A stretch of DNA of 63,956 nucleotides, the filler included, from Gonapodya sp. JEL0774 (lineage: Eukaryota), in assembly GCA_027604505.1 (NCBI GenBank). It is 4 parts of 4 records of this genome, joined end to end, with 100 filler letters (N's around TTAATTAATTAA, not from the genome) between each part and the next. Parts side by side here need not be neighbours in the genome. Positions count along the whole stretch, not along the records: positions 54,538 to 63,956 come from JADIIX010000412.1; 3 more parts are not named here. One strand, 5' to 3'. Below the pieces are notes generated by a model. That model made no database searches, was not told the DNA's origin, and saw nothing but the letters and a program-made list of their open reading frames with translations. Position 1 is the stretch's first letter; each line of letters starts with the position of its first letter. Both the position numbers and the translations under genes were made by a program. This document shows, in pieces, positions 9,536-63,956 of the stretch.

Positions 9536-10914
9536 TATATCCCATCAAGCCTCCACCCTAAGAGCTACTCTAATAACTGCGTTGCCGCGATAGGAAGAGT
9601 GTGGCGTGAGAAGCCCACTCTCGCAAAATACTGGCAGCCCAAGGGGGATCATTGGCACCAAACTGAGCTGAAAATCTCCCAGACAGATCCAGCTCAGTCG
9701 AGCTTGGCCGCCTGCACAAGAAAACTCTCACCCAATGTGCCTCGCCGGGGCTCTTGCACAAATCACCCAAGAAGGGTGTGTGCAGTGGATCACTTTGCAT
9801 GACGCACAAGTAGAGATTAAAAAACGAAGTGTATACTAAGCTTTGTAAAGAATAAGCAGAAAAGAGATCTAACTCACCAGTGGTCAGCGGATCCATTGTG
9901 TCAGCCACCACCACCTCCTTCATCTGCACGTCGCCCCTTCCCACGACCTTTCTTGCCACGCCCACCCAAATTCCTTGGAGATTGCCTCGACGGGGGGGTT
10001 GTCTCGAGACAGGTGGCAGGAACACCATAACCACCAGAACCAGGACTCACTGCAGTAGTAGCACCCTTTTGCTCTTGAGTTGTTGGTTGTCCGGATGATT
10101 CAGAAGCTTCTCAAGTAAAATTGAATATGTCGCATTGCTGATAAATCAATAGAGAGTCATGGACGAAAAGGATAAAAGCACCTACCCACGGCAGGTATTC
10201 TAACATTTGGATGAAACTTTGTTCGACCACCAGTCTGCCCTCTTGATTGGTCACCAAGCTGCCCCCGCTTCCCACTCCCACCATTGCCTCCCGTGTCATC
10301 ATCATTCCCATGGTCACCTCCATTGACATCATTGTGGTCCCCGTCTTCCGCCTTGTCGCTCTCTCTATCTGGGACCCCACCTGGTGTCATGGCTGCTTCA
10401 AGAAAGTGTGATGATGGCGTGATGATGGTGCAATTGTGAGGGTCTGGAGCCACTGAACAGCACAAGGTGGGGACAAGAGGTGATGAAACCAGAAGAGGGA
10501 TTGATAGAGAGTGAGATGAAATAGGGCAAAAAGGCGACACCATGGAGAATCAGGACAGAGTTGCACTGTGAAACCAACGCCCATTCACTCACCTTTGTTC
10601 AGTGAACTGGATGTGCCCCCTTCTGTGACTTGCTTCAGAGGATACGTAATCGTCTACATGGCTTTTAGATACCTGTTGTCCGCACGTTATATCTCAGCCA
10701 TAAGCATTGGTTGGATACAACAATCACTGGTCACTTCGCAGCCAGAGTAGTCGAACCGTGGCCATGAGAGCTGTCAGCAGCAAAGTGGACCCTCGTCCAT
10801 CCTTCAAACTTCCGGTCTGTATTCCATCTGCACTTTGTAGCCACTTGATATTGATGCTATATACATATAAAATATACGCAGCAATAAGTTACGCTCAGCA
10901 ACTACCTCTTACGT

Positions 10915-12814
10915 TTAGTGGAATAAAGAGTTGTCCAAGACCTGGTCGATCGAGGGACGCTTCGATGGATCTATGTCCAGCATGAGGAGCAGAAGCTGAA
11001 CAACTATTGAGATTAATTCATCAAGATAAGCCATCACAGAACTTGTGAACCGCAGAACGATCAACACTACCCACTGCGGCGGTCAACACGGCGCCAGCCA
11101 TCTCCCCACACGATCCCCCCGCGGAGTTGCGCAACATATTTCACGGACTGCTCATCCCACGAGTCTGAAGCGCAGAGACAACCGAAAGGAAGCGACCCTG
11201 ATATGCTGGATGTAATTTTTAGTCATTCTGGTGTTGAGGAACATACCAAAAGAAATTGAACACGTGACATGCAACAAACTTACAACGAGAAGCCGATCAC
11301 CCCAGCGGCGAACACATCAGCCGCGTAGCTCCCGAAAAAGTTCGGCGCATACGCTCCAATCTGCTCCGGGGCGGCGTACCCGGGGGTCCCGCAAGCAGTG
11401 CCAATGGCCGACATACTTTGCACCTCCTAAGTTGTAGAGGATATCTGAGATTCACCACACATATAACACTCATATGACCCCCCAAAAAGCTTACTGGAAA
11501 TGTTGCATCTGCAGGGTCTATGACCCACTGGTAATCTGGGTCTCCACTTTGATCCGCCAACATGATGTTGGCCAGCTTGAGGTCGCGATGAGCAACTCGG
11601 AGTCTGTGCAGGTGTTGTATGCCCAGCAAGACTCGTCTAAAGATTGCCATGGATTGGGCCACGTCGAATTGTCCTAGACCATACTCCTGGCCGAATACGG
11701 CATCCAAGAGGGTCCCACCAGAGTAGTATTGGGTCACTGCCATCGGAGAACATCGGGATGTCAAGATTAGGACAGAAAAGGCATACAGAAGACAATGTTT
11801 TGCACCAAGACTACGTACCCAGAAGTCCTCCTCTTCGAATTCGGGTGAAGAATAGAATAGACAGAAGATATGGGTGGGGATGGCGTTGAAGTAATTCGAA
11901 GATCTCAAACTCCGCGACTCCAAAACCATGAGTGAGTCTGAAAATTAGCTCCACGTTACTTTGCGAATTTCAGAGAAGGCGGGGATCGCGTACATTAGAT
12001 GTCGAGCGGTTCATTCTCACTGAATCAATGTACGTACTACTTCCCCGAGAAAGATGCGCGCGGAGCAATCTTTCACTTTCAGCTCACGGAACACGTGGAT
12101 TTCTCCTTGCTGACTGAGCTGGCGGTGTTGCCTCAAGCGTACTTGCAGGCACTCGGACGTTGCATTCTGTGTGGCCTTCAAGGACCATACCCGCAATCCT
12201 CGCAGAGTCTTCCTGTGCGTCAGTCAGGTTGTTGGAGAATTGGTCGAATTGCATCTGGAGGTGTGCCGCATGCGGCTGCAAGAATCACTGACTCGGAGTA
12301 GGCGAGCCGACCCATCAATTCTCTTCGCTGCTCTTCAGCGATTCCCCGAGTCACGATGTGAAGACTCTCCTTCACAAGACCGTCAGCGATTGCATCCTCT
12401 ACCGTCTCGGAAAGTACCACCACTGTCAATTCGAGCTTGCCGCATGCGGCTCGCAGAGCCTGCATCTCCTCCTTGGTGTGGACAGCGCTATTGCAAAGTT
12501 GGACGATAGTTCCGCTGGCGGAGTCCAAAGCACTTCTCAGCTCGACTCCTGAACTGCGCATCGTCTCCTCCTCTCGCCTCAGCTCTCCGAGCGTGCTCCT
12601 GCACTCCCGCAGCTCCAATAGAAGCTGCTTCTTTGTGGATTTCTTTCCGGACGACTTCCCCGAGATTTTCTTTGCGAATCTTGAGAGTGATGGGAACTAG
12701 AATTATGCGATTCAAAAGCAATCACTGGATTTGATGCGGATGATTGAAGACGATCGATGTAATTACCGAGAACCATCTCTTGAGGAGGTTTTTGCGCTCG
12801 GTAGATTTGTCCAT
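10915..12814 (-). pseudogene. Degenerate spliced Ser/Thr protein kinase with N-terminal coiled coil
   Basis: HRDLKLANIML, GTACGTPGYAAPE, DVFAAGV and DPSKRPS motifs across exons; DFG position reads DPA; apparent frameshifts near 12220 and 11850. Confidence 0.6.
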
Positions 12815-13572: not shown

Positions 13573-15796
13573 ATGACCCATACAATAGGGTCCCTGGACA
13601 TCGACGGCAATGCTCGCGTTCAAATTGGACACACTATCAACTACAACGTCTCGAGGTAAGCCCCACCTTTCTTTCGAAGCCACAGGAAGAACGCTTGTTG
13701 CCTCTCACTCTGTCGAGGTCAGACCCGCGATCGAAGATGTGTCTCCAAAATTTAATGCAGGACCGAAACATTACATCCCGTATCTGAAGAACGGGAAGTT
13801 CGTAGGGCGCACAGGTGCACTCGAAGCTCTGGAAAAGAAGCTGTTTGACATCAATACCAGCCGAAAGGTTGCTATCGTGGGACTGGGCGGGGTTGGAAAA
13901 ACACAGCTTGCATTGGAGTTCGCCCACCGGATGAAAGAAACGCATAAGGACTACTGCATATTCTGGTTGTCAGCAGTCAGTATGGAAGGCTTTGAGAAGG
14001 AATGCGGGGAGATTGCGAAGCAATTGGGAATACTGCAGGGTGCAGGAGGCAAGGACGATGCGAAAGATGCGGTCAAACGGTATTTGAGTAGAGAAGAAGC
14101 AGGGAGATGGCTCCTAATTCTTGACAACGCGGACAATATGGACATAGTAATGGGAGCTGGGCATACTCCTGGAATACACAACTACCTTCCCCAGAGTATG
14201 GAAGGCCGGCTAGTTTTTACAACTCGCAGTCTGGACATCGCGCACGCGCTCACACAGGGACAAACAGTTACTCTCACATCTATGAGCCCACAGGAAGCGG
14301 CGGACCTTCTCAACATGTCACTAAATGAGGAGCGAAAGCATTTACTCAGCGAAGAGTCCAACACCACTGAACTTCTTGAGGAACTCACTTACCTACCATT
14401 GGCTATCACCCAAGCCTGCGCATACCTCAACAGGAACCAGACGACAACAATACAAAAGTATATGGAGTTTTTGAGAAACAAAGAGCTCAAAGGACCTTGG
14501 CTGTGGGATTTCTACGACCACGCAGGGAACCGCAAGGACCCTGTAGCAAAAACGTGGTTGATATCGTTCGACCAGATCCGTACGCAAGATCGAAACGCCG
14601 CAGATCTCTTGGGCTTCATGGCGTGCATTGAACCAAAAGCGATCCCTCGAACCATATTACCCACGATAGGTGACGAAAATGACATGGAAATTGCCATCAA
14701 TACCCTGGTGGGGTACGCATTCGTGACACATCGTTTGGACAAGGACTCAGGAAAGGACTTTTACGATCTCCACCGGCTCGTGCACTTGGCAGCCGGCGTG
14801 TGGCTCCGCGAGCTTGGTGATGCGCCACGGAAGACAAGAGAGGCGATCCGCCACATCGCGACGGTGTTTCCGACCGACGACTGGGCGAACCGGGAGCAAT
14901 GGAGGGCGTACCTGCCGCACGCCACGAAGGTGCTCGAAGGCGGCGAAGGTAAGGAGCTGGCAGAGAGGTACGACCTGTGTTTTCGAGTCGGAGGATGCTT
15001 GCAGGTCGACGGACGCGTGCGAGAGGCGGTGCAGTGGCTTGAGCGATGCGAGAGCGGCAGGCGGGACGTGCTGATACTGGCAGAGGACCACCCCAGCTTG
15101 TTGACGACGCAGAACGACCTGGCCTGGGCGTACCTCTCCGACGGGCAGGTCAAGAAGGCCGTGCAGCTGTACGAGCGCGTGCTGGTGACGTGGGAGACAA
15201 CACTGGCAGGGGACCACCCCAGCTTGTTGACGACGCAGAACAACCTGGCCGGGGCGTACCTCTCCGACGGGCAGGTCAAGAAGGCCGTGCAGCTGTACGA
15301 GCGCGTGCTGGCTGTTTGCGAGCGGATATTGGCGGAGGACCACCCCGATCGGTTGGGGACGCAAAACAACCTGGCCGTGGCGTACCTTTCCGACGGGCAG
15401 GTCAAAAGGGCCGTGCAGCTGCTGCAGCATGTCGTCGCTGTCCGTCGGCGAACACAGCGCGAGGACCACCCGGACCGAGTGGGCTCGGAATGGTGGCTCG
15501 CACACGCGCTCGAGGAGGACCGCGCGAGCCTGGGCGGCGTGGGCGTGGGCGTGGGCGTGGGCGTGAGTGTGGGCGTGGGCGTCGGCGTGGGAGTGGGCAC
15601 GATTGTAGGCGAGGGCGAGGTGAGCGACGAGGGCGGCGGACAACGCCAGGCCGACGGACGACACCAGCGTGCAGCAGCAGCAGCAGCCGTGTCGGCAGAG
15701 GAGGTCGGGCACGCACGTGCAGGGAGTGTGAGAACACGTGGTGGCCGCGGGGGTGGCGTGCTGCGGAAACTGTGGAACACGCTCACTAGGACATAG
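13573..15796 (+). CDS. Fungal NLR (NB-ARC + TPR) with N-terminal HET-s-related amyloid motif; exons 13573-13655 and 13723-15796
   Basis: FVGR, P-loop GLGGVGKT, Walker B LLILDNAD, LPLAITQA, LHRLVH, and 42-aa EDHPxxLxTQNNLAxAY TPR repeats. The GTAAGC...TCAG intron 13656-13722 joins MTHTIGSLDIDGNARVQIGHTINYNVS in frame to RPAIEDVSP. Confidence 0.9.
15083..15490 (+). repeat. 126-bp near-identical tandem TPR-coding repeats (~3.2 copies)
   Basis: G(A/G)GGACCACCC starts at 15083, 15209, 15335 and 15461. Confidence 0.95.
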
Positions 15797-33549: not shown

Positions 33550-36410
33550 TCAATCTTCATCCGAGGAATCGTCTTCGTCGTCCTCTTCAGGCTTTGCACC
33601 CCCAACAATCTCTCGCTTCATCTGCGCCAGCTCCTTCTTGGCAGCGGTAAAAGCACCAGCAAGCGTGTCCTCATCAGGTTCGCTGTGGAGGAATATGCAG
33701 AATCAGGATACGACGCTATGAAATACAAAAGGAGAGACAACAAACCTGATGTCGTCATCATCTGGGTCGTCCAAATCCGGAAGCGGCTCCTGCACAACGA
33801 GCTGCAACGACATCGTCGAAATAGTTATGTACTCGGAGACAACGCTTTTCGATGATCAACTCATACCTTCACGTCCTTGAATACATCTGCGCCGACCCAG
33901 CTATCTGACTTAATCCACATGACGAACTGGTACACGCCGACCTTGGGCGGTGCTCGAAACTGAATTTTCACAACTTTTGGCTTTCCTTCGACAACATCTG
34001 TTACTTTGGAGACAGTGAGGAGGGGTATTTGATTGTTTGCTCCCCGAAATCCAAAGACAATCCACCAGCCAGGCCGCTTTTCCTGTAACCAATCACATGT
34101 TGGTTGGCTTAAACGCGCGACAAAAGGAGACCGCTTAAGCTTCGCAGCAAGTGAGCGTTCTTACTCACTGCAGGATAAAATGGCGCGTGGACTGGTTCAG
34201 ACGAGTTTTTGTTGGACTCCCACCACTTCCGCGCCCTATCCGCTTCCTCTTCCTCTTCGGACAATTTGGAAGCATGACCTGGGGAACTTTCCCCGTCCTT
34301 TTTCTCCTCCGCCTTGTCTCCGTTCTTCGCCGACTCCGCTGCAGCGGCCGCAGCGGCTGCCGCAGCCTTGTTCTTCTTATTCTTACGATCTTGCGCACCA
34401 CTCGTCTTGCTCACCGCCGGAGCCTTGTCTTCGGAAGAAGATTTCGCGTCCTCGGGTGTCGCCGCTTCACCATCTCCGTGCGCTTGAGTGACCTCACCGC
34501 TGCTCCCAGAGGTCTCCAACGTAGAAATCTCTGGCTTCTGGGCGATGGCAGACAAGTTCTCTCCCTCAGCTTTGCGCGTAGTGTAGTTGATTCGCACAAA
34601 CAGTGTCACAAAACTTTCCGGCATGACACGCTCCTCGTTGATGACCTTGGCCTCCGCGGAAAGCACCTCGAGCACGGGGAACGTCTGGGCGACCAACATG
34701 GAGCACCGGTATTGCTCCGGAGTAAGTGACCGAAGGATAGACTGTCGATCGTCAGCACGTATTTCCAACAGCTGGGTGATGGTTCTCACGTCACGCTGAG
34801 GCAGGCAACGGCAGGTGACACAACAGCGTTAATAATCTTCAAGAAACGGGGATTGAGAACCCCTACGATTAACCGTAACCCACCTTCTTCGTTTTTGTAT
34901 GCTTGAGCACCTCCCGATCCACATACGGCAATTGCAAGAGCGGACTCTGGTGTATCCACATCGCCTGCACCACACACTGTCCCAGCTCTATAATCGCAAT
35001 CACGTTCCCCGTCAAGGGATAATTCGCCGCCGTAATCTGCAACATAGCGCCCAGCAAGTGCAACGACTTCTCCACCACGAGCCTCCTCTCGACCTCCCAC
35101 CGCTGCTCCATCGCACTGTCGGAAAACTTGACGCGGGCGAAATGCGCGTACATGAGCAGTAACACCTTCCACCACGTGGTGTCCTCCAGTGGCGCGTTGA
35201 AGGGGAGCTTCTTGGGCTTCTCCAGACGCTCCCCTGTGCGGTCGTCGAACCCGTCCCTGACCACCGTGTACAGCTTGGAAAGCTCCTCGGGTGTGCTGGG
35301 CGAGAGGCCCTTGACGATGGTGCCGTCGGGCATGGGGAACTCAGGCAGCTTCCACTCGAAAGCGAGCGAGAGGATCTCCAGGAGGAGGGTGATCTTGGGG
35401 TTCTCGACCCGTAGGGCGGCTTTGAAAAAGTCGTTGGTTTTGTGGAGGACGCGGGTCGGCGCATAATCTTTGGCGGAACTCCACCAGCGGGACTTTTTTG
35501 CGTCGAGGTTCGAGCAGATGTGTATGATGACGCAGGGGGGGGGGGGGGGGGGGGGGGTGTGNNNNNNNNNNTCCCGGAGTTGGCCGCCCGCGCGCCCCCC
35601 CCCCCCCCCCCCGGGGGCGCCGGGCCGGCCGGGCGCGCGCCCCCCGCCGGGGGGGCCCCGCCCGCCGCCCGCCCCCGCCCCCGGCCCGTGGATGGCGCAA
35701 CATGTGAACAAGGCATTGATGACGATCGTTTGCATTGTCCAAATCACAACGTGAACGTTCGGTCCCCCGCATTCCCGTCGATCATTGCTGTGCCCTGGGC
35801 CTGGGACTTGCTTTTCAACGCACACGTGAACCACGTCCGTGATCACGATAGCCACGGAACTCCGTCCCCGGCAACCCCCCTGTCGCCCCTCTCTGGCCTC
35901 CGCCAACGCGCCGTCCACTCCAGGCCCCGGAAGCATCCACATCCACACCCGCGACCTCTCGATCCGCAACCATTGCACCACATCCCCCTTTCCCAACTCT
36001 CCTTCCCCCGTCCCGCTCCCCAACCCCACCCCACCCCCCTCCCCCGCCACCCACCACAAAAATCGGCAACCCCAGTCCCAACACGACCACATAAAACGCC
36101 AGCACCTTGTTCTTCCCGCCGGCCGCGACCATCCACGCGGGGAGGGCGATGCCGACCGAGACGGCTGGGTGGGAGAGGGGGGGGGGCGCGCAAAGGGCGT
36201 GAGGTACGTACAAGATGGCGGTTACATGGCCGCAGCGAACCGAGCGGGCCCGGTACGGCACGGCAATGCACGGCAAGGGCAGCTTGGGGACCGAGCCGGA
36301 GACCGAGCCGCGAGCTGCGACGCCAACCCTCCAACTCACTCTGTTTCCCGTCCGGGTTTCCGAACTCTTCCCAGTTCTTGCGGATGTCTTCGTCGGTGAG
36401 GCTTTTTTGT
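33550..36410 (-). CDS. SEC63: ER translocation protein Sec63 (5' partial, spliced)
   Basis: End of J domain LTDEDIRKNWEEFGNPDG, then GIALPAW plus a TM segment, Sec63/Brl motifs SPLLQLP and VHAPFYP, and an acidic C-terminus. Confidence 0.9.
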
Positions 36411-54537: not shown

Positions 54538-54802
54538 CTCCATCATGACATCGGCGGGACATTTCACCAGCCACGCTCACAAAAATATACTGTTTGTTTC
54601 CTTTATGTGGTGCTTTCTTGAAACAACAGTCCAGCACGTTGGTCGACGCTGCATAACCCGTTCCGTCACCAAGCCATTTGGTGCCACCAACATTTCCTGG
54701 CATGATGGCGTAAAACTCTGCGATGAAATCTTTCACTTTATCAGGCGTGCTCACAGAAACCGGTCCATCCACCTCCCAGTATAGGTCGAGATTGGCCTGC
54801 AT
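54538..54802 (-). CDS. Paralog of the primase-helicase lacking the Prim-Pol domain (3' truncated by the contig end)
   Basis: MQANLDLYW|EVDGPVSVSTPDKVKDF...HKGNKQYIFVSVAGEMSRRCHDG aligns to the start and then the Zn-finger region of 55892-58750. Confidence 0.85.
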
Positions 54803-54877
54803 TGCAAAAGATCGTAACAAAATCTTTAATTTTTAAAATGGTGGTGATGGGATGAGATCTGAAACTTTTCGAAACCA

Positions 54878-55035
54878 TTACAGGATGGGGATGGGGATGG
54901 GGATGGGGATGGGATGGAAATCTTCAACTATCACAGGATGGGGATGGGATGGGATGGAAATCTTCAACTATCACAGGATGGGGATGGGATGGGATGGAAA
55001 TCTTCAACTATCACAGGATGGGGATGGGATGGGGA
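54878..55035. repeat. 40-bp GGGAT-rich tandem repeat (~3.5 copies)
   Basis: TCACAGGATGGGGATGGGATGGGATGGAAATCTTCAACTA at 54931 and 54971, partial at 55011, and a longer variant at 54878. Confidence 0.95.
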
Positions 55036-55098
55036 GTCTGAAACTTTCGAAAACTCTATTAGGATCCGTGATTGCAACTTTCGCTTTTGCACAATCCA

Positions 55099-55810
55099 GT
55101 AAAGGTGTAAAGTAGACTTTGAAACTCAACTGTAGTTGCAGAGTTGTGTTCCAATCTGTACATTTTTTACGCTCCGTAGTGTTAACTTTTCTATATCATC
55201 TTTACACCTTTACATCTTTACATGTAGGCAACTACTGTCAACCTGCCTGTACAAAAGGTGTAAAAACGTGTAAAGATGTAAAGATGTAAAGGTTGTGCAC
55301 CACTGTGAATTTAATGTACATATGTAAAGGTGTAAAGGTGTAAAGTAGACTTTGAACTCAAATGTAAGTTGCAGAGTGTATTTTTACTCTGTATACATTT
55401 GTTTATGCTCCGTAGTGTTAACTTTTCTAAATCATCTTTACACCTTTACATCTTTACATATAGGCAATTACTGTCAAACAGCCTGTGCGAAAGGTGTAAA
55501 AACGTGTAATGATGTAAAGATGTAAAGGTTGTGCACCACTGTGAAGTTTAATGCATATATGTAAAGGTGTAAAGGTGTAAAGTAGACTTTGAACTCAAAT
55601 GTAGTTGCAGAGTTGTATTGCACTCTGTACATTTTTTTTTTGTTACGCTCCGTAGTGTTAACTTTTCTATATCATCTTTACACCTTTACATCTTTACATA
55701 TAGGCAATTACCGTCAAACTGCCTGTACAAAAGTTGTAAAAACGAGTAAAGATGTAAAGGTTGTGCACCATTGTGAAGCCCGGTGTATATGTTAAGGTGG
55801 AAAGGTGGTG
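55099..55810. repeat. Three ~235-bp AT-rich tandem units with inverted 8-bp iterons (putative replication origin)
   Basis: GTAAAGGTGTAAAGTAGAC at 55099, 55332 and 55569; each unit has TTTACACC/TTTACATC runs facing TGTAAAGA/TGTAAAGG runs. The repeat is certain; the origin role is inferred. Confidence 0.9.
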
Positions 55811-55891
55811 TAAGGGTGATGAAATAAAAATGTTGTGTCGTTTTCTAATCTGGTGTTTGTAGCTTTTATTTTTTATTCTCTTTTCACATTC

Positions 55892-58750
55892 TTACAGTGT
55901 TATCGCGTCGCTCTGAGCCCACGCATGCCCAAGAACACATGTGTTCTTACCGCGAATCAGACCGACATTCTTTCCCATTTGCCTGAGTTTGCCGCCAATA
56001 TCGCGAATTGCTTTCAGCCTTCCACCTCTTCTTTGAGAGTTAGACTCCACAAATTCAGGGTAGTGTACTTGCAGTGCCGCTTCACCATGCCTCGATATAT
56101 ACCACCTGCGGAATAGTATGAGGATTTCGTCAAGAGGTATATCACTCTCTCTATCGGCCACAATCGATTCTTGAAGATAGTCCCACAAGGGATTGTTGCT
56201 GGCAATGTAGTCTTCACGCCTTTCTTGCACCTCCGCAGGTCTCTCCAGTCCCTCCGTTCGGAACTTTTTGTAGTAGTCAAGGAGCACTCCCAGGAAAGCG
56301 TTTCGCCACTCTCTACCGAATCGGTCAGCCATCTTTGCGTCAGCGCGGTACACGTGATTTGCACTGTCAGTGATACCACTGACAACAAATGAAGAAGTGA
56401 AGGGCAGAATATCGATTCTACGCGTTGCCCCATCAGATGTATCGTCAGCGAAGCTTGGGGCGTGGTTGACACAAATTGCAAAGTGCCATTGTGGCTCAAT
56501 TGTCACCTCTTCACGTGCATACACCGCGCGGTTTGAGATTTTGTTAGCTCCTGTGAGTTCCTTTATGACCTTGGTATTGATTTTTGCACCAACTTCAATC
56601 TCCTCACAGAACACTCCGCGTGCCCTTGCGATTTTTGCAATCGCTGAGTTGGGCGCGCGAGCGTCAGTACCCGCCTTCTGGGTAAATAACTCTGTTTTCG
56701 CCATTGCCCCATAGTCTCCGAGGACTGCCAGTACCGCTTTAGTGAGCATACTCTTGCCATTGGCACCACTTCCTTCAAAAAACATGAGCTTGGCATCTTT
56801 GATCTCCCCAGAGAGCATTGACGCAAGGAACTTCAGAAGATAATCACGGTTCTCAACGTCTGGCTGAATTTGAGTCAGCACCTCCATAATGCAACCCTTC
56901 ACGGCCTCATCGCGTGCCTCAGTAGCGTTGAAAGCATAACCAGTGCTCATAGTAACGTAGTCAGCTGGCTGAGCATCTCTGAAGTACATGGGACTTCCGG
57001 CCACGAATGCATCCAAGTCAAGAACGCCGTTCTCAAAGCCCAAAAGATTGCGCCTCGCGTCTCTGAGTCTCTGAAACTCAGCGCTCTTCTTACCAAAAAA
57101 GTTCTCGGTGAGTCCCATATAGCCTTTTAGCTTGTAAGGTTCACCAATTGCAGTGAGTGTGTCGCTGATCTTCTTCGCCTTGCGTGGTTCGTTGAGATCG
57201 GCGTAGTGATTCCATGCGCGGTTATAGTGTCCGCGGAAGTCACTCGCACTCAATAAGAGCCTCGCGATATTCGTGAGACTCATTGGCGTCCACTTGCCAT
57301 CAGTGAAGGCGACCCATGTTTTGCTTCTTTCAGCGTCGTCAACATGAACGACATCCGCATCAGCGTAGTACTCCTCTATAAAATCCGCAATGAGCACCCC
57401 ATCGCCTGTCAACGAGAGAAGGAATGCATTGTTGAGTCGGTCCGACTCAAAGAATTGAACATTGTCCTTGACAAATTCGTTCGGCCCAATGTCAGTGTCG
57501 CTGATATTGTTGTTGATGGTAATGTTTGTAACATTAAATTGCTGTATGACAACAAAGAATTTTCCAAGATTGGCATACTTGTCCGTTGGAACGGCAATGC
57601 CACCGTTGGCTGGAACTTTGAACAAGCAACCTGCAGTGTCGCAGGATATGACTAGTCCCGTACTGCTTGTAGTTGCACTTAAAGAACCTTTCCCACACAA
57701 AATACATCGGTCTTGTCCATAGCATTTCGTCAAAGTACCTTCGAATCCCTTCGAGTCGGGTTTCAAGACCATCGTTATGGCATCGTTGCCCGGAACCGCG
57801 TAGTTCACATGTTCAGCAGCTTCCTTACGAGCGAGCTCTACGAGCTCCGGATTGACAAAGGGCTTCACAGGGAATAGCTCCCGGAGCACCTGAGCAATTT
57901 CCTGAGTGATCTTTCGAGTGCCCCACTTCTTATCTCTACACTCTCCATCATGACATCGGCGGGACATTTCACCAGCCACGCTCACAAAAATATACTGTTT
58001 GTTTCCTTTATGTGGTGCTCTCTTGAAAAAGCAGTCCAGCGTGTTGGTCGACACTGCATAACCCGTTCCGTCGCCAAGCCATTTGGTGCCACCGACGTTT
58101 CCCGGCAAAATGGCAAAGAAGTCTGCGATGAATTCCTTCACGACATTAGGCGTGCTCGCCGAATCCGGCACATCCACCTGCATGTGTGGACGATGACCGA
58201 TACGTTTGCTACCACCTGCACTTTCACGCAGCGCCTTTGCCAGCCATTCTGGCATTTCCTCAAGTTCGCGCTCCCACGGTGAGAAGCCATCCAGCCATGT
58301 GTATCGCCGTAGGTCTGGCTCTCCCGGAACCTGAAACGAGCTCGGTGGAGCTATGATCATCCCACCGTGACTTCGCACATCTGCACAACCGCCGAGAAGG
58401 TCGGATGTGGACTTGATGTCCGCGAGGGCTTCGCTCCATCGAAAGTAGAGATGGCGGCCACCTCGTTGCGATCGAGCGGTGACTGTGTCCGGTTGACTTT
58501 GGCCGACATCCTCGAGGAATCGTTCCCAGCCGCTGACGTCGTCAATGTCTAAAACGACTATACCAGAAGCAGGGCCAGTCTGGATCGCGACGGCGTTTTT
58601 GAGAGGTACGTTCTTCGCTGTGTCCAGATCAAGGTTTTGCCAGTTTCGCGGAGGTTGCAGGTCTTTCTTGTTACGCTGTTCATTCCAGGAAAGAGATATT
58701 GGGAATGCAACCCATTTCAGCTGCCAGTACGGGTTGAGATTGGTCTGCAT
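55892..58750 (-). CDS. Intronless 952-aa Prim-Pol primase/polymerase + Zn finger + D5_N + SF3 helicase (viral/mobile-element D5-like)
   Basis: AIQTG..IVVLDIDD, SQRGGRHLYF, DVRSHGGMIIAPPS; C..H..N...CHDGEC; LLGFENGVLDL, YVTMSTGY; Walker A GSGANGKS, VFCEE, IKELTG, CVNHAP. The start at MQTNLNPYW is supported by the paralog. Confidence 0.93.
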   Translation of the reverse strand: MQTNLNPYWQLKWVAFPISLSWNEQRNKKDLQPPRNWQNLDLDTAKNVPLKNAVAIQTGPASGIVVLDIDDVSGWERFLEDVGQSQPDTVTARSQRGGRHLYFRWSEALADIKSTSDLLGGCADVRSHGGMIIAPPSSFQVPGEPDLRRYTWLDGFSPWERELEEMPEWLAKALRESAGGSKRIGHRPHMQVDVPDSASTPNVVKEFIADFFAILPGNVGGTKWLGDGTGYAVSTNTLDCFFKRAPHKGNKQYIFVSVAGEMSRRCHDGECRDKKWGTRKITQEIAQVLRELFPVKPFVNPELVELARKEAAEHVNYAVPGNDAITMVLKPDSKGFEGTLTKCYGQDRCILCGKGSLSATTSSTGLVISCDTAGCLFKVPANGGIAVPTDKYANLGKFFVVIQQFNVTNITINNNISDTDIGPNEFVKDNVQFFESDRLNNAFLLSLTGDGVLIADFIEEYYADADVVHVDDAERSKTWVAFTDGKWTPMSLTNIARLLLSASDFRGHYNRAWNHYADLNEPRKAKKISDTLTAIGEPYKLKGYMGLTENFFGKKSAEFQRLRDARRNLLGFENGVLDLDAFVAGSPMYFRDAQPADYVTMSTGYAFNATEARDEAVKGCIMEVLTQIQPDVENRDYLLKFLASMLSGEIKDAKLMFFEGSGANGKSMLTKAVLAVLGDYGAMAKTELFTQKAGTDARAPNSAIAKIARARGVFCEEIEVGAKINTKVIKELTGANKISNRAVYAREEVTIEPQWHFAICVNHAPSFADDTSDGATRRIDILPFTSSFVVSGITDSANHVYRADAKMADRFGREWRNAFLGVLLDYYKKFRTEGLERPAEVQERREDYIASNNPLWDYLQESIVADRESDIPLDEILILFRRWYISRHGEAALQVHYPEFVESNSQRRGGRLKAIRDIGGKLRQMGKNVGLIRGKNTCVLGHAWAQSDAITL

Positions 58751-58785
58751 TGCAAAAAATCGTAACAATATTTTAAGTTTTAAGT

Positions 58786-58830
58786 TGGGATGGGGATGGG
58801 GATGGGGATGGGATCGGATGGGATGGGATG
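58786..58830 (+). repeat. (GGGAT/GGGGAT)n tract upstream of the primase-helicase start, G-quadruplex-like
   Basis: TGGGATGGGGATGGGGATGGGGATGGGATCGGATGGGATGGGATG. Confidence 0.8.
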
Positions 58831-58980
58831 CCACAAGAGGATTTGGAAGCCTGTTACTGCTGATGGGAAATTTGGAATCAACGCTAGACGCATAGTTACA
58901 CGATGGGTACTCGTTTATTATGACCCTTGCTGTATTATTAACACCACCTGACCCAAACACTGTATAAAAACTCATACGAA

Positions 58981-61591
58981 TTACTCATATTCACAAGGTT
59001 CAGACGAATCCGAATCCAAATCCGAATCCGAGTCTGGTGTCGGGTCAGGTGTCGAGTACTTTGAGGTTGTCCTAGACGATACGTTGGCCTTGACACCTTC
59101 CATCATGGTAAAATTCACACGTCGCTGCCCCACATGGCAGACAATGGATTTTCTACCATTCCCAGGGAATGCCACCCATGGAAGACCACATGAAAGCGCG
59201 GTCCGAACAATTGGTGTATCGGTGACGAGGAAGTCCGTGGTGATCGGGGCCCCCTTACGGTGGATGAGTGATGTGGTTGTCACATGGAGTTTGTCTCGCT
59301 TGCCACTATCGACAGCCCAAGACACCGTCTTACTTGTGAAACGGTTTTCGGTACATGCGGGCTGGGTTCAAGAAACGATCAATATGCGCATTTCAACGAG
59401 CAAAACCAAATGTGACAACGTACAAAGTTTGACACATATGATCCGAAAATGCGGTTCAATTCCTTAGTCGGAATACTTGTCTTGCTTTCGCTGCTACCGG
59501 ATGTAACGATGGGCTGTTGTACGAGATACTTTTTCACTCGAGCCAAAAAAGCGTTCGCATCTTCTCCTGCAATCACAGCTGCAGTCGAGTCGCGAGGTCA
59601 ATGAAGAGAATGCATCTGTTCTTACATGCGAACAGGCACTCACGGAGCTGTTCCCCTTCATCGTGAAAGGACCGCGCAACCGTTCCGACAGCGTCCGCCT
59701 CACTCGCCTGATGCTCCTCGAGTGTATCTGCAGATACGCTACCACCCGATATCTCCGCAATGGGGTCGTCGCGTCTGTTTCGTGCTGCACTAGCCTCCGT
59801 CTCAACGTCGGACAGAATGAACAGCGTTGCCGCGAGGTTGTCCGATGTGTTCTCGAGCACAAACGGTACCGTTGAATGAATCACTGAATTCATATTTAAC
59901 GCGTACACCAGGGAGTCCTTGATGAGGCGTAGGGTAGGCGAGGTGATAATTGCAAGCAGCTAAGTAGTGCAAGGGCACAATGTGAATCGAAGATTAGGTC
60001 CTTTTCTATGGCCTGCAAAGAAACACATACATGACGACTGGAACCAACGTCGACGGCCCAACGATCGCCGGGGGCGATACATTTCGACGTCAGCCGGGTC
60101 ATCGTCACCGAGAGACCACCGTCGACGTTGTCGTATATTTCTGCATATGAGAATGGTCCATTGAATAGTGTGTTCAAAATAAACAGAATACGACAGCGAC
60201 TCACTCAGCCCCGAAAGTGACAGACATGGTGAAGAGTCCTTTCCAGAGCCCGTACCCTCGTTGGTATGGGCAATGGGCTGCGCTCTTACACCGACATCCC
60301 GTGACGGGGGTTCCACCCGATGTATGTTGTCGATGACTTTCCCCTTGCCCTTAGATCGGTTCGGAGATGGCAAGGATGGTTGCGAGGGTGGCGGCGACGA
60401 TGGCGGCAGGTGTGATGGTACCGATGGTGCCGATGGGGTCGTGTGTTCGTGTCGACCAAAAGAGTCGCCGCCACTCGCCTCCTCTTCTCCATACCCTGTG
60501 ACTTCAAAGTCCACACCATCGCCACCGACTCCGTCAAAGTTCACGTCCGCCTCCGCACCGCTCTCCTCCTTATGCTCCTCCACATCGCCCCCCTCCTCCT
60601 CATCCTCCCGGTCCTCATCCTCGTCCCCTTCTTCGCCGCCCTCCTCATCCTCATCCTCATCCTCATCCGCCTCGTCCCCCTCTTCGCCGCCTTCCTCCTC
60701 GACCTCCTCCTCGGCATCAACCTCATGTACCTCTATTGTGGATGATGGGGGCTGTGATGTGGGTGGTGGTTCGCGTGTCGATTCGGCGAGGAGAGCAGCC
60801 TCCTGACTTTGCGCTGCTCGTTCTGCTTCTCGCTTTTCCGCCCTCCGTTTTTCGACATCGAGCAGTTGAGCCACTCGCACTTCATCCTCACGCCTCGCCA
60901 ACTCTCGCTTATCCTCCCTCAGCTTTTCCGCCTCACGAATCTTCTCCGCTCGATACTCAGCTTCTCTCCTTACTTCCTCGCGACTCTTCGCATCTCGCTC
61001 TTCAGCTTCTTGCCTTGCTGCCTCTCGCCTCGCCACTTCGACCTTCCTTTCCTCCTCCTGTTTCTCGCACGCTGCCCAAAAATATGCAGGGTTGGCTGTT
61101 CCGTGGGAAGTTGATGGGACATCGACGGGGGCACGAAGACCTGTTCTTCTGTAAATCACACATACGCATGTACTTGAGAGACTTGGAAAGCCCAGAGTCG
61201 ATACGGAGTGACATACGCACCTTCCTCTGACCCCCGGTTCGTACACAATCGTGCCTCGTTCGCGTCGATTCGCTCGCCTCAATGCTACATCTTCTGGAAC
61301 TACCCCGCTCGCGTTCCCTGATAGTTCAGTCAATGCTGGACGCGAAGGTTCCTGATTGACTCTGGGTGCGAGTTCAGTATCGGAGCAGAAGAGTTCCCCT
61401 CCGTGAGATGCGCTGGGATTGAAGTAAAATCGGGGGGCAGAAGAAGTTTTTGTCGAAGAGGCGGAGCGTGAGGAAGAAGGGGTGATGGTGGAAGCAGATG
61501 AACGGGAGGAAGAAGGGATGGTAGAAGAGGCGGAACGGGAGGAAGCAGAGGAGCGGGCGGGAGGAGCGAGAGACGATGCAGGTTGAGACAT
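58981..61591 (-). CDS. Hypothetical spliced gene, possibly disrupted (Ser-rich N-terminus, coiled coil, acidic tract)
   Basis: Long ORF 59960-61591 with a GTGCGT..TACAG intron near 61151-61220 and GTGAGT..GCAG near 60141-60206; downstream ORF pieces continue to 58981 with a break at ~59575. Confidence 0.5.
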
Positions 61592-61774
61592 TTGGTGGCG
61601 ATTGTTTGGCGATCGCGATTCCTTGCGGCTGTCGAAAGTGGCCGCTGGTGCTTGGAATGGTTGCGTGTCCCTCCGCCAGACTTATTTGTGTGCTCAGTCC
61701 AGCTGCACCAGGAACAAAATTTATGACCTTTGCTTAAGTTTACTTTTTGTCAAACCATGAACGATACATAAAGA

Positions 61775-62815
61775 ATGGCTTCACGAATTAGGAGTCGACG
61801 CTCAAAAAAACGCGCATTGGTCAGGCGAGGTGGAAGCCCAGGTAAAGTCGAGCCCAAAAGGATAGGTGAAGGTTCGTTCGGATGCGTGTATTCACCTGCC
61901 TTCGATTGCCTCAACAACGTATATAACACCGACAAACCTGACCAATATGTCACACGAATTGGTCGTAGGAGCGACGTGCTCGCAAGACTAGAACAAGAAG
62001 AACGTGTCAGATGGATTGATCCGGACGGAGAGTTCACTTTGATACACGAGAGATACTGTGAAAACACCACAGGAAAAGTGAATGAATCATGTAAGGTATG
62101 TCGAAAGGGGAATTGTTTTGCAATGATATATCGCAACGGAGGGAAGTCACTGCATGATTTGATGAAAGAACGGACACTCACATTTGAGAATATTTGTAGA
62201 ATCTACAGTCTTTGGGCTCAGGCATTGTCCCGCTTTCATGAGAAGAGATACATGCATGGGGATGTTCATCGTGGTAACGTTCTTGTAACAGAGAGCGATC
62301 ATGGGGATTTCAAGGTTCGCGTGATTGATTACGATTTTACACAAAGCTACCAAATGTACTACGACCATATTGGCAGAGTGCTTAATCAACATGTAAAACC
62401 TCTGGTCGCGGATTTTTCACCTCCTGACGAGGTACTGTGGGAGTATATTTTAGATTACAAGAGAGAACCTTTCAACACATCTAACTTCGACCATTTATTC
62501 CCACACGAGAATCTTGAACCATATTGGGAGACGATGGACTTGAATACAGAGAGGCAAAGACACTATAAGTATCTGTTTTCCAAATGGGGTTGGGATTATA
62601 TGGTGAAACTCCTAAACAATAGAGATGCGAGGAAGAAATTTCCGATGGCGAGAGATGTGTATATGTTGGGATTTGATTTTGCAACAACTCTGAATATAAT
62701 GCGTATGGCTCACAAAGTAGATGTCAAATATGTAAATCTCATCCAAAGTATGACACGGTTCGATCCAATGAAGAGAATTAGCCTATCAGAGGCCGCGGAA
62801 AAGTTCTTGGCTTGA
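61775..62815 (+). CDS. Intronless Ser/Thr protein kinase of giant-virus style
   Basis: Basic N-terminus ending RRGG, IGEGSFGCVYSPAFDC, HGDVHRGNVL, VIDYD, DVYMLG, DPMKR. Confidence 0.85.
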   Translation: MASRIRSRRSKKRALVRRGGSPGKVEPKRIGEGSFGCVYSPAFDCLNNVYNTDKPDQYVTRIGRRSDVLARLEQEERVRWIDPDGEFTLIHERYCENTTGKVNESCKVCRKGNCFAMIYRNGGKSLHDLMKERTLTFENICRIYSLWAQALSRFHEKRYMHGDVHRGNVLVTESDHGDFKVRVIDYDFTQSYQMYYDHIGRVLNQHVKPLVADFSPPDEVLWEYILDYKREPFNTSNFDHLFPHENLEPYWETMDLNTERQRHYKYLFSKWGWDYMVKLLNNRDARKKFPMARDVYMLGFDFATTLNIMRMAHKVDVKYVNLIQSMTRFDPMKRISLSEAAEKFLA

Positions 62816-63078
62816 ATTCGCTACACTGTGCAGGATGTTTGATGCAGAGGAGCGGGTGCACCAGGTGAAGTCCACACACAAAATGTCTGGCGAAGGGACA
62901 CGCAACCATCCCAAGCACCAGCGGCCACTTTCAACAGTCGTGACAGCCGCAAGGAATATCAATCGCCAAACAGTGGCCACCAAATGTCTCAATTCGCATC
63001 GTCCATCTCTCATTCCTGTACAAATCAAAATCGAGCACTCCTCGGAGTACGAGTTTTTTTTTCAGTACGAAGCATACT

Positions 63079-63383
63079 TCATGAACAATAAACGTGTTCT
63101 ACTACGGAAGAAATTGTGTGAGATCGTCAATGGAAATACTGGATTGAAGGCAGTCGATTTGATTGTGAAACTTTGCGGCGAGTCGATTCCAAATTGCGAT
63201 CAGTCTGACATACATGATGTGCTGGATGAATGCGTGAAGCATGGAGATGTAGTTGAGATCTCTTACGTTCTTCCGTCAATGTCATATCGAGAGAAATCAA
63301 TGTACTTCCCAGGTGGAACATCTTTCACCAAACTCAGACCGGCTCACTGCATGCACCCTGGTACTCCACTGGAGCGGACATAA
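63079..63383 (+). CDS. Small intronless hypothetical protein
   Basis: C-terminal part of ORF 62835-63383 from MNNKRVLL; globular-looking sequence (GDVVEISYVLPSMSYREKSMYFPGGT). Confidence 0.5.
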
Positions 63384-63611
63384 AAGGATCAACAACATGT
63401 ATTTCTCCCTATAGTGTCGTCTTTGTAGAGCTAGCAGTACCCAACTTGTGTATTCTTGGGCACTCGCTCGCATGGAGGGTGCAACTGCTTCTCAAAACCA
63501 TGGACATATATAGTCAAATATGGTCAAAACTGGACGTCGACGTCGACGTCAACATCTTCAAAAATTCGAGAAATATTTTTTTTGTGAGTGTAGATGTAAG
63601 AAAAGTATCAG

Positions 63612-63956
63612 ATGCATGTCTCCACATCAGATGCAGCCCATCATTTTGGAGTGTCTGCTCGAACTATCCGCCGATAGTGTGATTCCTCAAAAGCTAACTC
63701 CTTCCGAACGCCAACAGGTGATCGACGCATCCTCATTGACCCATCTCACCAAAAACTCAATCGCTCCGTGGTCACCGGAACTAATCGGGAAAGTGTCGCG
63801 TATGTGCGAGTCTCTACACAAAAACAGAGAGATGATCTACAGCGACGACAAGATTTCATGGCTGACAAGTTCCCCAGATACAGAATTGTCGCCGACATTG
63901 GATCAGGACTCAACTTCAAAAGACGCGGACTATTATCCCTTCTGGAACTCGCGAAG
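63612..63956 (+). mobile_element. tnpA: IS607-family TnpA serine transposase, inactivated by an in-frame stop, 3' truncated by the window end
   Basis: MHVSTSDAAHHFGVSARTIRR*CDS..RTPTGDRR (MerR-like HTH) followed by YVRVSTQKQRDDLQR and DIGSGLNFKRRGLLSLL; TAG at 63675-63677. Not in the ORF track. Confidence 0.92.

What the first reader, a model, noticed from the sequence alone, without database searches (positions are those of the whole stretch)
55099..58750. Intact Prim-Pol/D5 primase-helicase with an iteron-hairpin array directly downstream: candidate self-replicating DNA module
Seen: a 952-aa uninterrupted, intronless, CpG-retaining ORF. About 80 bp past its stop lie three ~235-bp units, each with 8-bp-period TTTACA iterons facing TGTAAA iterons around an AGGCA...TGCCT imperfect hairpin. 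Known: phage satellites such as P4 and the PICIs use primase-helicase initiators with origins built from inverted short iterons, in PICIs just downstream of rep; D5-like primase-helicases are also core genes of nucleocytoviruses. Inference: this is a compact initiator-plus-origin cassette in a eukaryotic assembly, either an uncharacterised mobile element/plasmid or part of an endogenous large DNA virus.
Basis: partly seen in the sequence, partly recalled or inferred. Interest (0 to 1): 0.8.

Follow-up and report, generated by a model that had tools for sequence, protein, structure and literature searches.

The report
Primase-helicase with triple iteron origin
A virus-like contig in a fungal assembly carries an intact DNA primase-helicase gene followed directly by three copies of a mirror-image repeat cluster that is likely the enzyme's own start site for DNA copying, a layout known from bacterial phage satellites and seen here also behind related giant-virus genes.

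Summary
In detail: a 952-aa Prim-Pol/zinc/D5-type helicase gene with intact motifs, followed 77-133 bp after its stop by 2.8 diverged 236-bp units holding 25 TTTACA/TGTAAA words in both orientations. The window is four joined contigs. A second, primase-deleted copy of the gene follows the array. The 9.4-kb contig also has a giant-virus-type kinase and a broken IS607 transposase. In fetched loci, inverted repeat clusters lie directly behind 8 of 15 helicase genes that share its zinc domain and 22 of 45 mostly phage Prim-Pol genes, against 2 of 93 other D5 genes and 16 of 824 unrelated genes. In one clade the repeat word changes with the helicase's tail. Closest named relatives are nine Gonapodya proteins that keep the primase half but differ in the helicase half. 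Best reading: a mobile SaPI-like initiator-plus-origin module in giant-virus-derived DNA. Binding, replication, integration and an episome are untested. This scan's earlier unchecked notes report the same layout in giant viruses; my literature searches found none.

The parts
55892..58750 (-). Intact 952-aa primase-helicase (P0001): Prim-Pol, two zinc motifs, D5_N, SF3 helicase, probable winged-helix tail
58244..58681 (-). Prim-Pol domain (aa 24-169) with D68-x-D70, H100 and D124
   Evidence: Pfam PF09250 E 2e-19; residues invariant in alignment A4; fold match to Sulfolobus plasmid Prim-Pol 3m1m, Z 14.3, rmsd 3.2, 166 aligned
57626..58033 (-). Middle region with C240/H247/C266/C271 (UL52-like zinc finger, inferred) and a second Cys cluster (aa 349-375)
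   Evidence: C240, H247, C266, C271, C349 and C370 invariant or nearly so; relatives P0039, P0046, P0048 hit PF03121 weakly
56417..57388 (-). D5_N collar and SF3 helicase: Walker A GSGANGKS, Walker B FCEE, motif C N762, arginine R778
   Evidence: fold match to vaccinia D5, Z 29.7, and SaPI5 PriRep5, Z 23.6
55895..56194 (-). C-terminal tail, probable winged-helix origin-binding domain (weakly supported)
   Evidence: 9.2 bits against a profile of 96 D5 tails, best of 200 shuffles 3.0, only 34 residues aligned; helix-helix-helix-strand pattern but pLDDT under 50 after aa 893
55099..55815 (.). Candidate origin: 2.8 units of ~236 bp, each with 6-7 TTTACA-type repeats, a ~36-bp AGGCA/TGCCT core, 3 inverted repeats and a ~95-bp AT-richer spacer
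58786..58830 (-). CATCC-type short repeats upstream of the intact gene
54842..55035 (-). Expanded CATCC-type repeats (40 bp x 3.5) upstream of the second copy; GGGATGGG occurs only at these two upstream sites (8 times) plus once elsewhere in the window
54538..54851 (-). Second, tandem copy of the gene (ATG at 54802): 89% identical, lacks the Prim-Pol domain through an in-frame loss of about 180 codons, open for 88 codons to the contig end
59960..61591 (-). 543-aa low-complexity ORF without family match; followed by short open frames that may be a decayed longer gene
61775..62815 (+). 346-aa protein kinase of giant-virus type, flanked by a ~130-bp inverted repeat (61564-61692 / 62875-63011, 83%)
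   Evidence: Pfam; Atlas score 0.98, all 8 listed clusters viral, commonest phylum Nucleocytoviricota
63612..63956 (+). IS607-family transposase (serine recombinase) with an in-frame stop after codon 21, cut by the contig end
   Evidence: NF033518 E 1.5e-14; PF00239

Best explanation
The gene and the repeats behind it are likely a self-contained replication module, an initiator primase-helicase with its own origin, lying in DNA likely derived from a giant virus of an early-diverging fungus. By analogy with SaPI PriRep5, the C-terminal tail would bind the TTTACA words, two oppositely oriented sets would position hexamers around the AT-richer spacer, the SF3 ring would unwind the DNA, and the Prim-Pol domain would lay primers (all inferred). 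The module appears mobile and recombining. It is duplicated in tandem here, the origin unit is tripled with the same ~11% divergence as the two gene copies, and relatives keep the primase half while the helicase half and tail differ. Shown: gene, motifs, array, tandem copy, neighbours, and the association of such arrays with related helicase genes. Inferred: binding, origin activity, mobility, viral origin of the contig. Unknown: integrated, viral-genomic or episomal state.
For: Domain set and folds match PriRep5, D5 and pRN1-type Prim-Pol. Layout fits the SaPI origin definition: iterons immediately downstream, AT-rich centre, at least two opposed iterons per side (PMC9371898 passages). Test on 450 bp behind each gene (a 6-mer at least 3 times on each strand, beating 40 dinucleotide shuffles): 8 of 15 genes sharing the zinc middle domain, 22 of 45 mostly phage Prim-Pol genes, 2 of 93 other D5 genes; other genes in the same loci 5 of 116, 5 of 207 and 6 of 501; upstream regions 0 of 14, 0 of 45 and 1 of 86 (Fisher p 4e-6 for 8/15 vs 5/116). 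Three of those 5 of 116 are the same kind of array one gene behind the helicase. Among 13 related loci, the 6 pairs with the same repeat word have 78-100% identical tail tips, pairs with different words at most 67% (mean 34%), at similar helicase identity. L140, a Prim-Pol-D5 gene in a giant-virus MAG, is followed by opposed TTTACA words. L318, a phage helicase gene, is followed by three TTTACA, an AT-rich gap and three TGTAAA. Viral context. Mosaicism: identity to Gonapodya P0002/P0003/P0020 is 56-66% in the N-terminal half but 20-37% in D5_N and helicase.
Against: No binding or replication data. The winged helix is only weakly supported. No DNA around any close relative could be fetched, so it is untested whether the Gonapodya or small-contig genes have arrays. 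The supporting loci are only 22-27% identical relatives and are related to each other, so the counts are not independent. The triple TGTAAAG run alone is not specific: 16 of 17 viral loci holding it showed no helicase directly upstream of it, and none hit the D5 profile. Repeat columns are not clearly better conserved between units than the rest (6 of 48 vs 45 of 181 variable, p 0.08). The spacer is only moderately AT-rich. Mpox E5 was inferred to load without strict origin specificity (PMC12137749 passage). No capsid or polymerase gene was found on the contig, and the kinase had no sequence-search hit. The test against one Gonapodya helicase clade is borderline (AU p 0.046).
Confidence: 0.6

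Rival explanations
1. The module is the replicon of a small (about 6-7 kb) plasmid-like or satellite element of eukaryotes that has inserted, here twice in tandem, into giant-virus-derived DNA or persists as an episome.
For: In the helicase tree P0001+P0029 are sister (SH-aLRT 90) to a clade of Gonapodya proteins and 12 unnamed proteins, apart from giant-virus core D5. All 12 lie on contigs under 10 kb, and 8 of them at 5.9-7.3 kb. Seven homologs are named from one Gonapodya assembly.
Against: Unrelated D5 proteins from the same short-contig sources also sit on 3-13 kb contigs, so size is weak evidence. No DNA of these contigs could be read. No terminal repeat or circular overlap on this contig. 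Two G. prolifera homologs lie on 183-kb and 357-kb contigs.
Confidence: 0.2
2. The gene is the replication end module of a Polinton-like virus or the main D5 of a fungal giant virus, with the array as that genome's origin, not a mobile accessory unit.
For: PLVs often use primase-SF3 fusions and occur in chytrid genomes (bioRxiv 2026.06.19.733378 passages). In the metagenome clade L233-L254 the array-linked D5 sits among giant-virus-like genes.
Against: No capsid, packaging ATPase or tyrosine recombinase among the contig's ORFs. The tandem deleted copy and the several divergent paralogs in one Gonapodya assembly fit an accessory, mobile gene better. The kinase points to a nucleocytovirus, not a PLV.
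Confidence: 0.12
3. The array is an ordinary satellite or terminator/promoter region, tripled by slippage, in a decaying viral relic, and is unrelated to the helicase.
For: The contig shows decay (stop in IS607, deleted second copy, fragmented frames). Unidirectional TGTAAAG runs occur without helicases.
Against: Both orientations in a fixed layout, position right behind an intact gene, and the strong enrichment behind related genes.
Confidence: 0.08

Closest known systems
SaPI5 PriRep5 plus ori (staphylococcal pathogenicity island; PMC9371898, passages read)
   Same: Fused primase and SF3 helicase (Z 23.6, rmsd 5.8, 399 aligned to 7ola); short repeats immediately downstream, opposed around an AT-richer centre
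   Different: Fungal assembly with a giant-virus-type kinase; Prim-Pol plus two zinc motifs; three tandem origin units with 25 exact words instead of 6-12; no integrase or helper-phage genes found
Phage P4 alpha primase-helicase with ori and crr (recalled; search found no paper)
   Same: TIGR01613 P4-family primase C-terminus just at the cut-off (108.4 vs 108.7 bits); recalled: crr is a pair of direct repeats each holding iterons in both orientations, as in these units
   Different: Different primase type and host domain; P4 ori is recalled as not adjacent to the gene end
Mobile accessory D5-like helicases of entomopoxviruses and PLV end modules (PMC11296320, passages and section 9 part 1 read)
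   Same: Repeated helicase copies flanked by repeats in nucleocytovirus DNA, domain swaps between primase and helicase, repeats proposed as origins
   Different: That paper has no occurrence of 'iteron' and proposes terminal inverted repeats as origins; no T5orf172 nuclease or tyrosine recombinase was found here
Prim-Pol/D5 accessory genes of Mimiviridae-like viruses (Bodo saltans virus A0A2H4UVF4; loci L023, L095, L140)
   Same: Best BFVD fold hit, E 1e-49; L140 has opposed TTTACA words behind the gene
   Different: They carry PriCT-2 where P0001 has the zinc region; about 25% identity; separate branch
Mycodnaviridae and other giant-virus DNA in zoosporic fungi (PMC13533422 section 6 and passages; PMC5294986 passages)
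   Same: Giant-virus genes in chytrid and monoblepharid assemblies, including a viral DNA polymerase in Gonapodya prolifera
   Different: No capsid or polymerase gene on this contig; the passages read mention no primase-linked origin

Membership tests
SaPI/PICI Rep-ori module | Primase and SF3 helicase, fused or adjacent | tested here: met
SaPI/PICI Rep-ori module | Penta- or hexanucleotide iterons immediately downstream of the gene | tested here: met
   77-133 bp from the stop, 25 exact hexamers; more than the 6-12 described
SaPI/PICI Rep-ori module | AT-rich centre with at least two opposed iterons on each side | tested here: met
   ~95-bp spacer of 64-70% AT vs 52%, three words on each side
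SaPI/PICI Rep-ori module | C-terminal winged-helix domain | tested here: inconclusive
   Beats 200 of 200 shuffles but only 34 residues align; no Pfam hit; low pLDDT
SaPI/PICI Rep-ori module | Specific binding and melting of the cognate origin | not testable with these tools
   needs EMSA and replication assay
SaPI/PICI (the island itself) | Bacterial chromosomal island with integrase, dependent on a helper phage | tested here: not met
   A co-assembled contig encodes a fungal NB-ARC-TPR protein; no integrase hit; giant-virus-type kinase
Nucleocytovirus core D5 | AEP-type primase and placement with core D5 helicases | tested here: not met
   N-terminus is Prim-Pol PF09250; the helicase branches apart from the sampled giant-virus D5 genes, with moderate support
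Endogenous giant virus (Mycodnaviridae-like) | Capsid, PolB or other core genes on the contig | tested here: inconclusive
   None found by Pfam on a 9.4-kb broken contig; kinase and IS607 fit a giant virus
Endogenous giant virus (Mycodnaviridae-like) | Junction with host chromosome | not testable with these tools
   No genome held; both contig ends lie in repeated genes
Polinton-like virus | Capsid, packaging ATPase, integrase or tyrosine recombinase, terminal inverted repeats | tested here: inconclusive
   None found, but the contig is incomplete
Transpoviron | Linear ~7-kb DNA with terminal inverted repeats (PMC11788076 passages) | tested here: inconclusive
   No terminal repeat in the self-comparison, but the ends are broken; contig already 9.4 kb

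The most novel reading that the evidence does not exclude
P0001 belongs to an undescribed family of small (6-7 kb) eukaryotic plasmid-like or giant-virus-satellite replicons that use a SaPI-type primase-helicase and iteron origin, swap helicase-plus-tail and origin as a specificity cassette, and have colonised monoblepharid fungi or their giant viruses in many copies.
Probability: 0.2. Interest if true: 0.85.

Novelty: new variant of a known kind. Interest (0 to 1): 0.6.

Why it matters
Where nucleocytoviruses start copying their DNA is poorly defined, and a poxvirus D5 relative was inferred to load without strict sequence preference (PMC12137749). This locus gives a compact, intact enzyme-and-site pair that can be tested directly. 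The comparison also gives a natural series of giant-virus-like loci in which the repeat word tracks the helicase's tail tip, so specificity can be tested by swaps. If the 6-7 kb relatives are complete, they would be a new class of small eukaryotic replicons.

Tried and rejected
No whole genome is held, so the genome-wide test of arrays versus primase genes could not be run; read depth and circularity also stay open. Close relatives were not found as DNA: viral contigs with P0001 (none), A4 (only Prim-Pol-domain hits), A5 (at most 31% identity); metagenome contigs with A4 (23 loci at 22-27%). The exact convergent pattern has 0 matches in viral contigs. The kinase had no hit in the word-index search. 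The 543-aa ORF had no hit in Pfam, NCBIfam, PHROGs or the Atlas. No Rfam match on the contig. Tetranucleotide and splice-word counts did not separate this contig from the other three. No separate model of the C-terminal tail was obtained, so its fold stays open. Rejected: assembly artefact (units differ by 10-13% plus indels); CpG retention as a sign of foreign DNA; the longer 1027-aa frame from an upstream ATG (the extension runs through the CATCC repeats, and homologs and the second copy start near 58750). Literature searches without a paper describing iteron origins of nucleocytoviruses or this family. Six of the Mycodnaviridae supplementary files could not be read and may name Gonapodya contigs.
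Full report
Setting. The window is four contigs joined by N-TTAATTAATTAA-N spacers. The finding lies on the last one, 54538-63956; its 9,419 bp equal the contig length recorded for the protein, so the whole contig is in view. Another contig encodes an NB-ARC-TPR protein whose species-named relatives among the 120 listed are fungal, so the assembly is fungal. No whole genome is held.

The gene. 55892-58750 on the minus strand gives 952 aa. Pfam finds Prim-Pol, D5_N and DUF5906. The primase residues D68, D70, H100, D124, the helicase Walker A, Walker B, motif C and arginine, and two cysteine-rich motifs are present and conserved in the family alignments. The AlphaFold model (mean pLDDT 76, pTM 0.47) matches vaccinia D5 (Z 29.7), SaPI5 PriRep5 (Z 23.6, model range 420-936) and the Sulfolobus plasmid Prim-Pol (Z 14.3). 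Its best viral hit is a Bodo saltans virus D5-family protein. The tail scores 9.2 bits against a profile of 96 D5 tails, above all 200 shuffles, but only 34 residues align. A winged helix is therefore probable, not shown.

The array. TRF gives 2.8 units of 236 bp at 55099-55759, and degenerate words reach 55815, 77 bp from the stop. Read in the gene's direction, a unit has six to seven TTTACA-type words, a ~36-bp AGGCA/TGCCT core, three inverted words and a ~95-bp spacer. The spacer is 64-70% AT against 52% for the contig. The single-strand fold pairs the arms across this longer spacer (-32.5 kcal/mol, z -5.2), so there are two symmetry axes. In the first 450 bp the score was 5 opposed copies; 0 of 1000 shuffles reached that. 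No other part of the window scored 4 or more. Units differ by 10-13% plus indels, which excludes a collapsed repeat.

Behind the array lies a second copy of the gene's upstream region and start, 82-89% identical. It has lost about 180 codons in frame, the whole Prim-Pol domain, and runs open to the contig end. Both copies are preceded by CATCC-type repeats. Upstream lie a 543-aa low-complexity ORF without a match, a kinase whose 8 listed Atlas clusters are all viral with Nucleocytoviricota commonest (0.96-0.98), and an IS607 transposase with an internal stop, cut by the contig end. IS607 is known from giant viruses (PMC3673617, passages). Both contig ends thus fall in genes of a repeated kind.

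Relatives. The closest named proteins are seven from Gonapodya sp. JEL0774 and two from G. prolifera. Identity to P0002, P0003 and P0020 is 56-66% in the primase and zinc regions but 20-37% in D5_N and helicase; P0030 keeps 64% in the primase and 13% in the helicase. In a 42-row tree of 299 helicase columns, picked from 172 rows, P0001 pairs with P0029 (SH-aLRT 99). That pair is sister (90) to P0003/P0020 plus 12 unnamed proteins and apart from giant-virus D5 genes; one clade for the four Gonapodya-type helicases is borderline rejected (AU p 0.046). The 12 unnamed proteins lie on contigs of 3.2-9.4 kb, 8 of them at 5.9-7.3 kb. Unrelated D5 proteins from such sources show similar sizes, so this is a lead only. 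Giant-virus DNA in these fungi is known: capsid genes in two Monoblephidomycota (PMC13533422, section 6) and a viral DNA polymerase in G. prolifera (PMC5294986, passages).

Is the array tied to the enzyme? I could not fetch DNA of close relatives, so I tested distant ones. Of 254 loci held then, 234 had a complete plus-strand hit, forming 154 clusters at 90% identity; 153 had enough downstream DNA. The test asked for a 6-mer at least three times on each strand within 450 bp, beating 40 dinucleotide shuffles. Positive: 8 of 15 genes sharing the zinc middle region, 22 of 45 Prim-Pol genes (mostly phage; the group includes giant-virus-like L023 and L095, both negative), 2 of 93 other D5 genes. 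Controls: 5 of 116, 5 of 207 and 6 of 501 other genes; 0 of 14, 0 of 45 and 1 of 86 upstream regions. Three of the 5 of 116 are such arrays behind the gene that follows the helicase (L236, L239, L241; in L236 and L239 a T5orf172-type gene). By eye L235, L251 and L254 also show opposed words; L253 shows none. Two of the 15 are labelled giant-virus MAGs; the rest are read as giant-virus-like from their genes. Among 13 of these loci, with words assigned before the comparison, the 6 same-word pairs share 78-100% of an 18-residue tail tip. Different-word pairs share at most 67%, and 9 of the 10 closest helicase pairs have different words. A scan for three tandem TGTAAAG words gave 17 viral loci, none with a hit to the D5 profile. 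L318 has three opposed words on each side of an AT-rich gap directly behind a phage helicase gene; most others are one-way runs, and L316 and L323 have scattered words in both orientations. So the layout, not the word, carries the signal. These loci are related to each other, so the counts overstate independence.

Mechanism. SaPI Reps bind 6-12 short iterons directly behind their gene, opposed around an AT-rich centre, through a C-terminal winged helix, and load themselves (PMC9371898, passages). The same scheme most likely applies here (inferred): the tail reads TTTACA, hexamers assemble at the opposed sets, a spacer opens, the ring unwinds and Prim-Pol primes. Tandem gene copies, a tripled origin of similar divergence and exchanged helicase halves suggest a module that spreads by recombination, like the repeated accessory helicases of entomopoxviruses (PMC11296320, section 9 part 1). 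Against sequence-specific loading in this enzyme family stands the inference for mpox E5 (PMC12137749, passages).

Novelty. It works like a SaPI/P4 initiator-origin pair but is not a SaPI, and it is not a core nucleocytovirus D5. Searches found no paper on iteron origins of nucleocytoviruses, and searches 32, 67 and 101 none on this family; the library lacks most subscription journals. Earlier unchecked notes of this scan describe the same layout in several giant viruses and one protist contig; none concerns this protein. P4 details are recalled. Other papers seen as passages: PMC11788076, PMC5871332, bioRxiv 2026.06.19.733378. Verdict: a real, probably functional module, a new variant of a known kind; interest 0.6.

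Noticed in passing
L234:12195-12500, L245:12047-12250, L239:13240-13460, L236:13310-13570, L241:5815-6020, L248:8105-8385, L250:12025-12215: Very regular origin-like elements (about six words, 80-95 bp AT-rich gap, about six inverted words) behind the D5 gene of a giant-virus-like clade; the word tracks the helicase's tail tip, not the helicase tree.
   Followed up: partly
L245:12400-12700, L248:8400-8860, L239:13480-13800, L241:6080-6300: A second repeat block of TTTTGACA-type words follows the inverted array in several of these loci.
   Followed up: no
L140:8646-9000 and 9658-12276: Prim-Pol-D5 gene in a giant-virus MAG followed by opposed TTTACA words and, 1 kb on, an 872-aa ORF without Pfam match.
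   Followed up: partly
L318:4900-5170: Phage VapE-like helicase gene followed directly by three TTTACA, an AT-rich gap and three TGTAAA: same word and layout as the window.
   Followed up: partly
window 61564-61692 and 62875-63011: An ~130-bp inverted repeat (83%) flanks the kinase; each arm ends in a similar start (MSQ...), long on one side and short on the other.
   Followed up: partly
window 63084-63383: 99-aa ORF with a weak winged-helix hit (SAMD1_WH, E 0.03, below cut-off).
   Followed up: partly
window 13610-15796: Fungal NB-ARC-TPR immune-receptor-like gene with 126-bp TPR repeats.
   Followed up: partly
window 3999-7650: Ser/Thr-rich repetitive gene region with many short repeated exon-like units ending in GTGAGT or GTAAGT.
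   Followed up: no
window 34872-36092: Minus-strand frame with a Sec63/Brl domain hit.
   Followed up: no
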